A stretch of DNA of 61,307 bases from the NCBI GenBank assembly GCA_023416695.1, contig JAEZGY010000064.1:1-61307 (forward strand), in the 5' to 3' direction. Under the pieces are notes generated by a model. That model saw nothing but the letters and a program-made list of their open reading frames with translations, was not told the origin of the DNA and searched no databases. Origin of the DNA: Bacillota bacterium (GTDB lineage Bacteria > Bacillota > Clostridia > Lachnospirales > Lachnospiraceae). Position numbers and translations under genes: made by a program. Positions 19,773-48,783 of the stretch are shown piece after piece (position 1 is the stretch's first letter; every line of letters begins with the position of its first letter).

Positions 19773-19808
19773 AAGAATCGCACCAAAGTGGTGCGATTCT
19801 TTTTTATT
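19773..19808 (+). terminator. Rho-independent terminator (AAGAATCGCACC ... GGTGCGATTCTT + T6)
   Basis: 12-bp stem, read directly. Confidence 0.7.
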
Positions 19809-19987
19809 ACATAGGAAATTGCTTCGCAATATCCTATGTAATAAAAAAGCTTTCTAAAAGACAGAAAGCTGGTAATCGCACTGCGGCGGTATGGATAATG
19901 TCGTTTACGCGACCTGCCGCAGGCGGAGAGTTTCGCAAGCGAAACTCTTTTTTTACGGTATAGGAGCTTTGCAAGCAAAACTCTTAT

Positions 19988-26583: not shown

Positions 26584-27168
26584 ATGAATACAGGTAAAGT
26601 GGCAAAACTAATACGAACGATAACCTTAGCGCCTATTATGGCGCTATTGGCATTGACTGTTTTATTTAATTATACAGAAGATGTGTTTGGTAATACCTAT
26701 GAATATGTAATGGCAGTGTTTTTCTTGGTTATATTACCAATACTAGCATATCCACTGCAACCTCTAATTCCTTCTTATAAATCTAAGGGACGAGATGGTC
26801 AGAGACAATTGGCCATTGTAATGGCTGTCATTGGGTATATGGGAGGAATTACAGTTGCTCTTATAACTTCAGTTCCAGTAAAATTAAAGGTTATATACTT
26901 TACTTATTTTATTTCAGGTGTCTTAATCTTGGTGTTTAATAAGTTATTAAAGGTAAAAGCTAGTGGACATGCTTGTGGTGTTGTTGGGCCTATGGCAATT
27001 TTGGTATATTGTTTAGGGCCATGGGCTTTATTAGGGATACTGATTCTTTTTTTAGTATACTGGGCATCACTGAAGATGGAAAGACATACTGTTTCTCAGT
27101 TATGCTTCGGTTCTGTCATTCCAGTAGCAGCTCTTTTTATCTCTTATGAAATGTATCATATGGGCTAA
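26584..27168 (+). CDS. Small polytopic membrane protein, function unknown
   Basis: 194 aa, 4-5 TM segments. Convergent with the RT gene, overlapping its 3' end by 32 nt. Confidence 0.45.
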   Translation: MNTGKVAKLIRTITLAPIMALLALTVLFNYTEDVFGNTYEYVMAVFFLVILPILAYPLQPLIPSYKSKGRDGQRQLAIVMAVIGYMGGITVALITSVPVKLKVIYFTYFISGVLILVFNKLLKVKASGHACGVVGPMAILVYCLGPWALLGILILFLVYWASLKMERHTVSQLCFGSVIPVAALFISYEMYHMG

Positions 27169-28369
27169 TATTTTGGGATTCTTTAAAATATTCATTTACT
27201 AGACTTTTATAGCCCCATGCTTTTAACTCGTCATAGGAGATACGATAATTGCCTTTATAATGTCGTCCTGTGATTGTATAACGAATGTATTCCTGCATAT
27301 AAAGATCAATTTCATGAAGCCCTGTGCTGACAGTAAGATGAGGAAAAAACCAACGGTTCCAGGTAAACTCATCCTCTCCACCACTGCCATAGAACTTACG
27401 ATTCATGGCATTGATGAAGCCTATTGCAGCCTTATCAGGAGAAAGGTTTTTGCGCATTTGCCATAGTCTAAGTGCATTAGCCTTTCTTTTTATTTTCGCT
27501 TTTATTTTTCTTTTTGTCACGTCTGACAAATCAATTGCTCCATTGTAATAGGTAAACCCAAGAAAGCTCCATGGTTCTCCAGGTGAGGTAATGGCTACCT
27601 TATCGGGGTTAATCTGAAGTTTTAGTTTTAACAGATGTTCTTCAAAAATGGCGATGTAACTCTCTAGTTCTTCTTTTGTATCTGCAAAAAATAGAATATC
27701 ATCGGAATAACGAAAATACGGAATTTGTTTTTCAGCAAAGTAGTCATCTACTTTCTTAAGGTAGATATTAGCAAAAAAGGGGGAGATTGGTGTGCCAGCC
27801 ATTGCACCATGATGATCTATACAGACCTTTCCATTAACAGTAACACGGTCTTCCTTAAGAATATGAAAAAATAGGTTATACAGAGCCTCATCCCTCTCTT
27901 TTAGGAAACTTAACGAAGAGAGCAACTCATCAATATCGATGCTATTAAAGTAGTTATGTATATCAGCTTTATAGCAATATTTTTTACTAAAGGAGGTATT
28001 GTTTTTAAAATGTACCATGGCATTCCGAATTCCATAAAAGCGGCGAAAGGCGTAGCAGTTAGGACTTAACACATCATTATATACATAAAGCTGATGAGCA
28101 ATGAATTTGAGAATGATATTATCTTCTTTTTCAAAGGAGTAGACAATTCGCTTTTTTCGTGTGCCTGTCTTATTAATAGTTAACTTTCTTGGAAGGGTAG
28201 AAGGAAACATAGCAGATTTTATAAGTCCATCATAATGAAGATAACGCTTGTTATTTATAAATGTTATAATCTCTTGTTCTTCCTGTCTACTCAAATGTTG
28301 AAGTTGTTGTTTGTCCGACAGAAAGGCTTCCCAGTATGTTTTATCTGTAATTGTATCTAAAATAGACAT
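27137..28369 (-). CDS. Reverse transcriptase (RT fingers/palm motifs 1-7 plus thumb-like C-terminal extension), retron-like, not a group II intron or DGR RT
   Basis: RT motifs 1-5 are KRIVY, NAMVH (retron-type NAxxH), CYKADIHNYFNSI, AGTPISPFFANIYL and YFRYSDDILFF. Motifs 6/7 are INPDKV and SFLGF. A lysine-rich helix (KRKIKAKIKRKANALRL) and a GF..MNRKFYG motif follow. Strong AAGGAGG RBS. Confidence 0.85.
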   Translation of the reverse strand: MSILDTITDKTYWEAFLSDKQQLQHLSRQEEQEIITFINNKRYLHYDGLIKSAMFPSTLPRKLTINKTGTRKKRIVYSFEKEDNIILKFIAHQLYVYNDVLSPNCYAFRRFYGIRNAMVHFKNNTSFSKKYCYKADIHNYFNSIDIDELLSSLSFLKERDEALYNLFFHILKEDRVTVNGKVCIDHHGAMAGTPISPFFANIYLKKVDDYFAEKQIPYFRYSDDILFFADTKEELESYIAIFEEHLLKLKLQINPDKVAITSPGEPWSFLGFTYYNGAIDLSDVTKRKIKAKIKRKANALRLWQMRKNLSPDKAAIGFINAMNRKFYGSGGEDEFTWNRWFFPHLTVSTGLHEIDLYMQEYIRYTITGRHYKGNYRISYDELKAWGYKSLVNEYFKESQNISPYDTFHKR

Positions 28370-28407
28370 AGGTACCTCCTTTTTATCCTTTTAAAAAAGG
28401 ACATAAA

Positions 28408-28546
28408 AAAAGAAAGAGAAAGTGCTTTGAAGTGCAAAAGCTATGCTTTGCATACTAGACTGAACATGTCCCGGTTACCCGTAAAACCTCTTTAGAACAT
28501 GCTTCATCCTTCACGGGTACAGCGTTGCTGCATTTCTCTTTCTTTT
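28408..28546 (-). ncRNA. Candidate RT-associated structured ncRNA: a 111-nt core flanked by a perfect 14-bp inverted repeat (a1/a2-like)
   Basis: The repeat arms are AAAAGAAAGAGAAA (28408-28421) and its exact reverse complement TTTCTCTTTCTTTT (28533-28546). Internal hairpins include TACCCGT/ACGGGTA and TGCAAAGC-ata-GCTTTTGCA. No ORF. The segment ends 38 nt before the RT start. Confidence 0.35.
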
Positions 28547-28565
28547 AAACAATATTATATATTTC

Positions 28566-48735: not shown

Positions 48736-48783
48736 TAAAGCCTATTGTGTTTAAATATTTAATTCTAAACACAATAGGCTTTA
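48736..48783 (-). promoter_or_regulatory. Perfect 18-bp inverted repeat (12-nt loop) in the putP 5' leader, followed by a U-rich stretch and the RBS
   Basis: TAAAGCCTATTGTGTTTA and its reverse complement TAAACACAATAGGCTTTA, read directly. Confidence 0.35.

What the first reader, a model, noticed from the sequence alone, without database searches (positions are those of the whole stretch)
28408..28546. Perfect 14-bp inverted repeat enclosing a 111-nt hairpin-rich, ORF-free core directly 5' of the RT gene
AAAAGAAAGAGAAA (28408-28421) and TTTCTCTTTCTTTT (28533-28546) are exact reverse complements; I read this from the sequence base by base. On the RT-sense transcript they would pair as a 14-bp a1/a2-type stem, closing a 111-nt core.

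The core contains a 7-bp stem with a 30-nt internal loop (TACCCGT / ACGGGTA). It also has an 8-bp hairpin with one bulged A (TGCAAAGC-ata-GCTTTTGCA) and duplicated CATGTTC and GCACT motifs.

All six frames of the core have stops. A G lies 2 nt after a1 (a1-TGCAGC), where retrons place the branching G near the a1 boundary.

One caution: the repeat arms are homopurine/homopyrimidine and low in complexity, so a chance explanation is possible. An exact 14-mer reverse complement at this spacing is still unlikely by chance.
Basis: seen in the sequence. Interest (0 to 1): 0.7.

Follow-up and report, generated by a model that had tools for sequence, protein, structure and literature searches.

The report
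Closing stem of UG26 reverse-transcriptase RNA
The 14-bp inverted repeat is real: it is the conserved closing stem of a structured non-coding RNA (Rfam RT-5) that sits upstream of an unstudied bacterial reverse transcriptase (group UG26), which is not a retron.

Summary
AAAAGAAAGAGAAA (28408-28421) and TTTCTCTTTCTTTT (28533-28546) are exact reverse complements enclosing 111 nt.

As an isolated repeat it is only mildly improbable: 10 of 100 simulated windows contained one. Comparative data settle the question. A covariance model that includes this stem finds one full-length copy directly upstream of the RT, on the same strand, in 83 related loci. Two further loci keep only a remnant and one has none. 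The stem (P1) is 97% paired across the family and carries coordinated base changes.

The core matches Rfam RT-5 (RF03026) at 56.4 bits against a cut-off of 45.7. The Rfam model lacks P1 and the 5' half of hairpin P2.

The retron reading fails. The RT is a class 2 UG/Abi enzyme of group UG26 (PADLOC E = 1e-154), and the proposed branching G is base-paired in P2.

A 175-aa protein with a Vsr/restriction-endonuclease-like fold lies upstream in about 89% of assessable loci.

The most likely mechanism is inferred, not shown. The RNA would scaffold the RT and supply an internal template, the invariant 10-11-nt UUCAAAG-containing strand framed by P4 and P1, as in DRT9 and DRT10. A DRT2-style "neo" reading frame is not supported.

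This is a new member of a known kind whose function has not been characterised.

The parts
28533..28546 (-). On the RNA it reads AAAAGAAAGAGAAA, a near-invariant polypurine strand.
   Evidence: The 5' strand is 97% purine across 63 distinct homologues.
28408..28421 (-). On the RNA it reads UUUCUCUUUCUUUU, a polypyrimidine strand that runs on into a U-run ending at 28405.
   Evidence: The strand is 98% pyrimidine. P1 has 15 pairs, is 97.1% paired, and 13 pairs carry compensatory changes.
28519..28531 (-). P2, a small hairpin (GCAGC-AAC-GCUGU). Its 5' half lies outside the Rfam RT-5 model.
   Evidence: Helix 2 is 98.8% paired and 4 of 4 pairs covary. The Rfam hit begins at 28522.
28513..28518 (-). 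Pseudoknot, 5' strand (ACCCGU).
   Evidence: Mutual-information peaks. Helix 4 has 6 of 6 pairs with compensatory changes and is 98.4% paired.
28457..28509 (-). P3, a three-part long hairpin. Its apical loop carries the pseudoknot 3' strand ACGGGU (28477-28482).
   Evidence: Rfam consensus structure. Helices 5-7 are 94-99% paired and covary.
28433..28452 (-). P4 hairpin (UGCAAAGC-AUA-GCUUUUGCA). It is the proposed 5' boundary or anchor of the template.
   Evidence: Helix 8 is 98% paired and 6 of 7 pairs covary. The boundary role is inferred by analogy with SL5 of DRT10.
28422..28432 (-). J4/1, the single-stranded segment CUUCAAAGCAC between P4 and P1. UUCAAA is invariant. This is the candidate template. 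In this window GCACUU-CAAA-GCACUU forms a 6-nt A-B-A' repeat.
   Evidence: The segment is 10-11 nt long in 61 of 63 sequences and UUCAAA is invariant in 62 of 63. The A-B-A' test was inconclusive. The template role is an inference.
28419..28522 (-). Match to Rfam RF03026 (RT-5 RNA), covering the full model (positions 1-104).
   Evidence: 56.4 bits against a gathering score of 45.7.
28554..28559 (-). Possible -10 box (TATAAT), 7 nt upstream of P1. AT-rich TAnnnT elements recur at this position in homologues.
   Evidence: Alignment. The consensus promoter scan did not call it because there is no good -35 element. Weak evidence.
27137..28369 (-). Reverse transcriptase of 410 aa, UG/Abi class 2, group UG26. 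The YSDD active site is present.
   Evidence: PADLOC RT_UG26 E = 1.1e-154. Pfam finds only RVT_1. AlphaFold2 model pLDDT 90.5.
28566..29093 (-). Conserved accessory gene of 175 aa. It has an N-terminal MGFxDxLLK helix, a disordered linker and a C-terminal Vsr/restriction-endonuclease-like fold.

Best explanation
The inverted repeat is P1, the closing helix of an RNA of about 140 nt. In the RT-sense orientation the order is: P1, hairpin P2, a pseudoknot to the P3 loop, P3, P4, a single strand J4/1, then the return strand of P1. This RNA is the dedicated non-coding RNA of a class 2 UG/Abi reverse transcriptase of group UG26. Its core is the Rfam RT-5 motif.

Shown:
- The RNA structure, its conservation and its covariation.
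- Its fixed position and strand, directly upstream of the RT.
- The class of the RT.
- A frequently co-encoded protein with a Vsr-like fold.

Inferred, by analogy with characterised class 2 systems (DRT2, DRT9, DRT10):
- The RNA binds the RT as a scaffold.
- The RT copies a short internal template rather than the whole RNA.
- The best candidate template is J4/1, (C)UUCAAAGNNN. It is the only extended single strand, it has a fixed length of 10-11 nt, and it is framed by P4 (5' boundary) and P1 (3' anchor).
- Repeated copying with realignment would give repetitive cDNA. In this window the predicted product is (TTTGAAGTGC)n.
- The cDNA, possibly together with the accessory protein, would act in anti-phage defence.

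P1 would hold the two ends of the RNA together and anchor the 3' side of the template. Its strict purine-5'/pyrimidine-3' asymmetry suggests that the helix is recognised by sequence or by strand.
For: The Rfam RT-5 hit is above the gathering score.

All 9 genome loci with upstream sequence carry RT-5 upstream of the RT. The extended covariance model finds one full-length hit per locus, always directly upstream on the same strand, in 83 loci.

RNAalifold predicted P1 independently from a MAFFT alignment.

Covariation is strong:
- 96.6% of cells are paired, against 82% in shuffles and about 50% when partners are slid.
- The pseudoknot emerged from mutual information that was independent of the model.
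- Conserved G-U pairs place the structure on the RT-sense strand.

The RT matches RT_UG26 at E = 1e-154. The next-best models are other class 2 groups: UG4, UG27 and UG17 (= DRT10).

J4/1 is 10-11 nt long in 61 of 63 sequences and UUCAAA is invariant.

Literature:
- Class 2 UG RTs depend on cis-encoded ncRNAs.
- DRT10 ncRNAs have a large central stem decorated with small hairpins, and the template lies 3' of a boundary hairpin (10.1101/2025.10.16.682844).
- Authors predict that further class 2 members also template repeats (10.64898/2026.04.29.721553).

Decayed loci lose the RNA and the RT together (L010).
Against: No transcript ends, cDNA or phenotype are known for any UG26 system.

Defence association was 'inconclusive' in Mestre 2022. 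Here the immediate neighbours are housekeeping genes.

The A-B-A' microhomology expected for DRT10-type realignment is inconsistent:
- At least 3 nt are repeated in only 14 of 40 distinct sequences, and 11 of 40 have none.
- Direct repeats are not enriched over shuffles.
- In this window the upstream copy A overlaps the last 3 bp of P4.

UUCAAA is invariant, whereas DRT10 template loops vary. It could be a protein-contact motif rather than a template.

The accessory protein is not a SLATT protein. It has no invariant acidic residues in its C-terminal nuclease-like domain, so its role is open.

One locus (L013) has the RT without any ncRNA.
Confidence: 0.6

Rival explanations
1. DRT2-like rolling-circle reverse transcription. 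The whole P1-enclosed loop (about 107-111 nt) would be the template. P1 brings its ends together, and the nascent cDNA jumps between the short repeats AAA(U)GC at the 5' end and AAAGC at the 3' end of the loop, giving long concatemers.
For: A closing stem that brings the two loop ends together is the DRT2 layout. The motifs GAGAAA|UGC and UUCAAA|GC at the two ends of the loop are both conserved. Some homologues carry an identical AAAGCA or AAAGU at both ends.
Against: No conserved stop-free frame exists in the concatemer on either strand; only 9-13 of 63 sequences have one. Unit length is not biased towards multiples of 3. In this window all six frames contain stops. The loop is almost entirely tightly structured scaffold, including a pseudoknot, and would have to be unwound in every round.
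Confidence: 0.12
2. Retron-like msr-msd. P1 acts as the a1/a2 stem, a G at its boundary primes from its 2'-OH, and a single-copy msDNA is made from the 3' half of the RNA.
For: There is a terminal inverted repeat, the ncRNA lies directly upstream of the RT, and a template strand adjoins the stem, so the geometry is compatible. Weinberg et al. 2017 speculated that RT motifs may belong to retrons.
Against: The RT is UG26, not the retron clade, and its fold is less similar to retron RTs. The boundary nucleotide is variable and the conserved G is paired in P2. There is no msd-type long variable hairpin. None of the four local proteins scanned, the accessory included, matches a PADLOC retron effector.
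Confidence: 0.07
3. Cis-acting 5' leader of the RT mRNA. The structure, in which P1 is followed by a U-run, would attenuate transcription or be bound by the RT to autoregulate its own synthesis, without serving as a template.
For: It lies 32-106 nt upstream of the RT start on the same strand. A U-run follows P1. Strong promoters lie only upstream of the accessory gene, so the RNA is probably co-transcribed with the RT.
Against: The terminator scan found none; the stem next to the U-run is A-U-rich. An invariant pseudoknotted architecture of about 140 nt with a fixed single strand is more than attenuation would need. All characterised class 2 UG ncRNAs act as templates.
Confidence: 0.08
4. A chance low-complexity repeat, or a DNA-level element such as a recombination site or MITE terminus.
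For: The arms are homopurine and homopyrimidine. 10 of 100 simulated windows contain such a repeat.
Against: The repeat is conserved with coordinated changes in more than 80 loci whose RTs are only 42-58% identical. G-U pairs fit only the RT-sense RNA. There is a single copy per locus.
Confidence: 0.01

Closest known systems
Rfam RF03026, RT-5 RNA (Weinberg et al. 2017, NAR 45:10811)
   Same: The sequence at 28419-28522 matches the full model above the gathering score. It has the same P3 and P4 helices and the same position next to an RT gene.
   Different: The Rfam model starts inside the 3' half of P2 and ends at the first nucleotides of the pyrimidine strand. No function or RT class was assigned; the authors only speculated about retrons.
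UG26, a class 2 UG/Abi reverse transcriptase group (Mestre et al. 2022, NAR 50:6084)
   Same: The RT matches the UG26 profile over its full length and has no fused domain. A neighbouring protein with a Vsr/PD-(D/E)xK-like fold agrees with the reported YcjD-like association.
   Different: The paper describes no ncRNA for UG26. It found the accessory protein in 9 of 35 members and called defence 'inconclusive'. Here the ncRNA is near-universal and the accessory protein is present in about 89% of assessable loci.
DRT10 (UG17) and DRT9 (UG28) RT-ncRNA systems
   Same: They are class 2 RTs with a cis-encoded structured ncRNA. The RNA has a large closing stem decorated with hairpins, and a short single strand framed by two stems near its 3' end. 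UG17 is among the nearest profile matches.
   Different: The RNA family is different. The J4/1 sequence UUCAAA is invariant, unlike the variable DRT10 loop, and it is not a DRT9-type U-tract. A-B-A' microhomology is inconsistent. The accessory protein has a Vsr-like fold and is not a SLATT protein. The gene order is accessory-ncRNA-RT. No product or priming residue is known.
DRT2 (UG2) ncRNA and the neo gene
   Same: It is a class 2 RT with an upstream ncRNA. A stem brings together the ends of a looped region, and short repeats lie at both ends of the loop.
   Different: No never-ending reading frame is conserved in the concatemer. The loop is highly structured.
Retron msr-msd
   Same: Both have a terminal inverted repeat (like a1/a2) closing an RNA upstream of its RT.
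   Different: The RT clade differs, there is no conserved unpaired branching G, no msd-type hairpin and no retron effector.

Membership tests
Rfam RT-5 (RF03026) | Covariance-model score at or above the curated gathering score | tested here: met
   56.4 bits against 45.7, covering the full model 1-104. Nine orthologous loci score 49.5-57.2 bits.
Rfam RT-5 (RF03026) | Located next to a reverse transcriptase gene | tested here: met
   It ends 49 nt upstream of the RT start on the same strand.
UG26 class 2 UG/Abi RT | Full-length match to the group profile, better than to any other RT group | tested here: met
   PADLOC RT_UG26 E = 1.1e-154, residues 1-399 on profile positions 1-397 of 398. The next-best model is at 1e-33.
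UG26 class 2 UG/Abi RT | RT domain only, with no fused accessory domain (the class 2 trait) | tested here: met
   Pfam finds only RVT_1 in the 410-aa protein. The AlphaFold2 model aligns over its full length (TMq 0.73) with a group II intron RT, which has fingers, palm and thumb.
UG26 class 2 UG/Abi RT | Reported association with a YcjD/Vsr-like PD-(D/E)xK protein | tested here: met
UG26 class 2 UG/Abi RT | Anti-phage defence function | not testable with these tools
   The literature calls it inconclusive. Neighbouring genes are housekeeping genes.
Retron | RT belongs to the retron clade | tested here: not met
   Retron RT profiles score only E = 1e-15 to 1e-18, against 1e-154 for UG26. NCBIfam retron_St85_RT scores 71.5 bits against a cut-off of 235.
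Retron | Terminal a1/a2 inverted repeat closing the ncRNA | tested here: met
   P1 is conserved and covaries.
Retron | Conserved branching G at the end of the 5' arm, free to prime | tested here: not met
   The position after P1 is U 44, C 10, A 7, G 2. The next G is paired in P2, which is 98.8% paired.
Retron | Production of msDNA with a 2'-5' branch | not testable with these tools
   This needs an experiment.
DRT9/DRT10-type class 2 template ncRNA | Short single-stranded template framed by two anchoring stems | tested here: met
   J4/1 is 10-11 nt long in 61 of 63 sequences and lies between P4 and P1. This is an architectural match only; the template role is not shown.
DRT9/DRT10-type class 2 template ncRNA | A-B-A' microhomology or a homopolymeric template that allows realignment | tested here: inconclusive
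   This window has a 6-nt repeat. At least 3 nt are repeated in 14 of 40 sequences and none in 11 of 40; permutation P is about 0.001 without correction for phylogeny. There is no excess over shuffles.
DRT9/DRT10-type class 2 template ncRNA | Protein-primed repetitive cDNA | not testable with these tools
   A conserved YY lies near the C-terminus and is only a candidate priming site.
DRT10 | SLATT effector in the operon | tested here: not met
   The four proteins scanned at this locus (RT, accessory and the two flanking ORFs) give no SLATT match, and the accessory protein has a different fold.
DRT2 | Stop-free reading frame across the concatemerised template (neo) | tested here: not met
   An open frame occurs in 9-13 of 63 sequences, with no length bias towards multiples of 3.

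The most novel reading that the evidence does not exclude
The UG26 RT, the extended RT-5 RNA and the Vsr-fold protein together form a new type of defence-associated RT system. It would make a product distinct from those of DRT2, DRT9 and DRT10, for example a 10-11-nt tandem repeat with an invariant TTTGAA core templated by J4/1. It would also have two features without precedent in known class 2 systems. The first is a sequence-invariant polypurine-polypyrimidine closing helix that the RT reads in a strand-specific way. The second is a nuclease-fold partner, apparently without catalytic residues, that binds or processes the cDNA.
Probability: 0.3. Interest if true: 0.65.

Novelty: new member of a known kind. 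Interest (0 to 1): 0.45.

Why it matters
UG26 is one of the class 2 UG/Abi reverse transcriptase groups with no assigned function, no described ncRNA and no known product.

This analysis does three things:
- It ties UG26 to an orphan Rfam motif, RT-5, which has had no known function since 2017.
- It extends that motif with the closing helix P1, the 5' half of hairpin P2 and a pseudoknot.
- It defines a compact three-part cassette (accessory protein, ncRNA, RT) that is common in gut Firmicutes.

Together these give experimenters exact RNA boundaries, a candidate template and specific mutants to test. The question is whether the 'two anchors frame a template' logic of DRT2, DRT3, DRT9 and DRT10 extends to another group. 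The finding is a useful lead rather than a surprise, because authors in the field already predicted that other class 2 members use ncRNA templates.

Tried and rejected
- **Neo-like gene.** I concatenated the P1-enclosed loop, and also the AAA-to-AAA unit, for 63 homologues. No stop-free frame is conserved. Rejected.
- **A-B-A' template repeat.** A permutation test is nominally significant, but the pattern is absent in a quarter of the sequences. A general search for direct repeats found no more than in shuffles. Left as inconclusive.
- **Coding potential.** All six frames of the core contain stops. An ORF runs through the RNA in L004 but is not conserved.
- **Intrinsic terminator or own promoter.** The scan found no terminator and no full sigma-70 promoter at the RNA. 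Only a -10-like box is present.
- **RT identity from solved structures.** Sequence search and Foldseek show only generic RT similarity. They do not separate the candidate mechanisms.
- **Sequence family for the accessory protein.** PADLOC, Pfam, NCBIfam and PDB sequence searches were all negative. Only fold comparison gave an answer.
- **Defence-island context.** A PADLOC and Pfam scan of 133 flanking ORFs found housekeeping genes. The only PADLOC hits were generic ABC-ATPase matches.
- **Mobile-element context.** No close relatives were found in IMG/VR, INPHARED phages or PLSDB plasmids. The RT-5 model does not hit the distant viral relatives, which are probably UG27-like.
- **Literature.** Searches for 'RT-5 motif', 'RF03026' and for DRT11-14 found nothing on UG26.

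Full report
**1. The observation**

Reading the window and an exact k-mer search confirm the repeat. AAAAGAAAGAGAAA occupies 28408-28421 and its exact reverse complement TTTCTCTTTCTTTT occupies 28533-28546, enclosing 111 nt.

- TACCCGT (28476-28482) and ACGGGTA (28513-28519).
- The hairpin at 28433-28452.
- The duplicated CAUGUUC and GCAC(UU).
- Stops in all six frames of the core.

The region lies between a 175-aa ORF (28566-29093) and a 410-aa ORF (27137-28369), both on the minus strand.

As a bare statistic the repeat is weak. Ten of 100 order-2 Markov simulations of the window contained a perfect 14-mer inverted repeat at 20-300-nt spacing, and the window has two others. The minus-strand RNA folds with the repeat as its closing stem (-54.1 kcal/mol, z = -3.9).

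**2. What the surroundings are**

The 410-aa protein is a reverse transcriptase.
- Pfam finds only RVT_1.
- It matches PADLOC's RT_UG26 profile end to end (E = 1.1e-154). The next-best models are other RT groups: UG4, UG27 and UG17, the last being DRT10. Retron models are far behind.
- NCBIfam gives only sub-threshold generic hits.

UG26 is a class 2 UG/Abi group. Mestre et al. 2022 described no ncRNA for it, called defence association inconclusive, and reported an occasional YcjD/Vsr-like neighbour.

Rfam places the core of the finding (28419-28522, minus strand) in RF03026 'RT-5 RNA' at 56.4 bits against a gathering score of 45.7. RT-5 is one of 19 RT-associated motifs from Weinberg et al. 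2017. No function is known for it, and the authors only speculated about retrons. The Rfam model begins in the 3' half of a small hairpin and ends at the first nucleotides of the pyrimidine arm.

**3. Comparative test**

Eleven genome loci and 80 metagenome loci encode RTs 42-58% identical to this one. They come from Lachnospiraceae, Acetatifactor, Oscillospiraceae and gut metagenomes.

All nine genome loci with upstream sequence carry RT-5 32-106 nt upstream of the RT. Printing their flanks shows the purine and pyrimidine arms in every one, with coordinated differences. One example is AGAGAGGGAAA paired with UUUCCCUCUCU.

RNAalifold, run on a plain MAFFT alignment, predicted the terminal stem independently.

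I then built a covariance model that includes the stem. It finds one hit per locus, always directly upstream of the RT on its strand: 83 full-length hits and 2 truncated ones (L057, L043).

The exceptions are informative.
- L010 retains only the 3' end of the RNA next to a truncated RT.
- L013 has an RT but no RNA.

Pair counts on 66 distinct sequences:
- 96.6% of cells are paired, against 82% in shuffles and about 50% when partners are slid.
- 45 of 50 pairs show changes on both sides.

For P1 alone:
- 97.1% paired (93.9% Watson-Crick).
- 92.4% (maximum 93.6%) in column shuffles.
- About 75% when slid by one position.
- At least eight distinct compensatory variants.

Mutual information, which does not depend on the model, revealed a pseudoknot. 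ACCCGU (28513-28518) pairs with ACGGGU (28477-28482) in the P3 apical loop. All six pairs are compensatory and 98.4% are paired. Conserved G-U pairs fit only the RT-sense strand.

**4. Anatomy**

In the RT-sense orientation the elements are:

| Element | Window coordinates | Note |
|---|---|---|
| Possible -10 box | 28554-28559 | TATAAT |
| P1, 5' strand | 28533-28546 | Polypurine |
| P2 | 28519-28531 | Small hairpin |
| Pseudoknot, 5' strand | 28513-28518 | ACCCGU |
| P3 | 28457-28509 | Three-part hairpin |
| P4 | 28433-28452 | Hairpin |
| J4/1 | 28422-28432 | Single strand CUUCAAAGCAC |
| P1, 3' strand | 28408-28421 | Polypyrimidine, running into a U-run |
| RT 5' leader | 28370-28404 | Contains a good ribosome-binding site |

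Two features stand out.
- P1 is almost invariant in sequence and strictly asymmetric. Its 5' strand is 97% purine and its 3' strand 98% pyrimidine, and nearly all changes are A-U to G-C exchanges.
- J4/1 is the only extended single strand. It is 10-11 nt long in 61 of 63 sequences and UUCAAA is invariant.

**5. A third component**

The 175-aa ORF has a homologue immediately upstream of the RNA, on the same strand, in 73 other loci. That is about 89% of the loci that can be assessed. About nine loci have only the RNA and the RT, preceded by unrelated housekeeping genes.

The protein belongs to no sequence family. Its parts are:
- A conserved N-terminal MGFxDxLLK helix.
- A disordered linker.
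- A C-terminal domain of about 100 aa, modelled at pLDDT above 90.

**6. Mechanism**

*Shown.* This is a conserved, pseudoknotted RNA of about 140 nt, closed by P1, dedicated to a class 2 UG RT.

*Inferred.* Characterised class 2 systems use their cis-encoded ncRNA as scaffold and internal template for iterative cDNA synthesis. [quoted passage not shown] Applied here:
- P4 would be the 5' boundary.
- P1 would be the 3' anchor.
- J4/1 would be the template.

In this window GCACUU-CAAA-GCACUU forms a 6-nt A-B-A' repeat. It would support telomerase-like realignment and a (TTTGAAGTGC)n product.

Across the family this signal is inconsistent. I therefore put the template assignment at about 0.4-0.5, and the overall identification at about 0.9.

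**7. Rivals**

- *DRT2-like rolling circle.* It is disfavoured because no stop-free frame is conserved in the concatemer. A non-coding concatemer is not excluded.
- *Retron.* It fails on the RT clade and on the branching G.
- *Cis-regulatory leader.* It is possible. The promoters found lie upstream of the accessory gene and no terminator was detected. It does not explain the elaborate invariant architecture.
- *Chance.* It is excluded by conservation.

**8. Context**

Flanking genes in the window and in other loci are housekeeping genes and differ from locus to locus. No close relatives occur in virus, phage or plasmid collections.

The cassette therefore behaves as a self-contained chromosomal module in gut Firmicutes. 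Defence is inferred only from family membership.

**9. Verdict**

It is a new member of known kinds, Rfam RT-5 and UG26. Three refinements follow from this analysis:
- The link between RT-5 and UG26.
- The extension of the motif by P1, the 5' half of P2 and the pseudoknot.
- A near-universal partner protein with a Vsr-like fold.

The biochemical output remains unknown.

Noticed in passing
window 28566-29093 (-): The accessory protein starts with a conserved MGFxDxLLK amphipathic helix; M1, G2 and D5 are invariant. From memory this resembles the membrane-binding N-terminus of PspA/Vipp1. The C-terminal nuclease-like fold has no invariant acidic residues.
   Followed up: partly
window 19799-19849 and 48736-48783: There are two other perfect 14-15-bp inverted repeats with short spacers (21-22 nt at 19799-19849, 20 nt at 48736-48783). 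They may be terminators or operators.
   Followed up: no
window 26584-27168 (+): A 194-aa hydrophobic ORF converges on the RT gene and overlaps its 3' end by 32 nt. It has homologues in only 2 other loci, so it is not part of the system.
   Followed up: partly
L013 2150-2520: A UG26 RT (55% identical) follows a rubrerythrin-like gene directly, with no ncRNA and no accessory gene. This is the only intact-looking RT without the RNA. The record is a co-assembly, so it could be an artefact.
   Followed up: partly
L010 2740-2860: This is a decayed locus. Only the last 30 nt or so of the ncRNA (UGAAAGCUGUUUCUCUCUCUUUUU) survive, next to an RT with an internal deletion. RNA and RT appear to decay together.
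   Followed up: partly
L018, L008, L063, L066, L068, L059, L061, L021, L016: About nine loci carry the ncRNA and the RT but no accessory gene. The upstream genes are unrelated: fucose isomerase, tRNA synthetases, TrkH and PfkB.
   Followed up: yes
window 28405-28421 and 28533-28546: The strict purine-5'/pyrimidine-3' asymmetry and near-invariant sequence of P1 go beyond what base pairing requires. From memory it resembles a retroviral polypurine tract. No explanation was tested.
   Followed up: no
L004 2760-3000: In this homologue an AUG at the P1/P2 junction opens an ORF that reads through the entire ncRNA. In the window the same frame stops after 9 codons. The ORF is not conserved.
   Followed up: partly
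L092-L118 (IMG/VR): Viral contigs carry only distant RT relatives (22-33% identical, mostly 22-27%, probably UG27-like). They have no RT-5-like RNA.
   Followed up: partly
L006 5342-5587: A T-box leader (RF00230, 99.6 bits) lies downstream of the UG26 cassette in this locus. It is unrelated to the finding.
   Followed up: no
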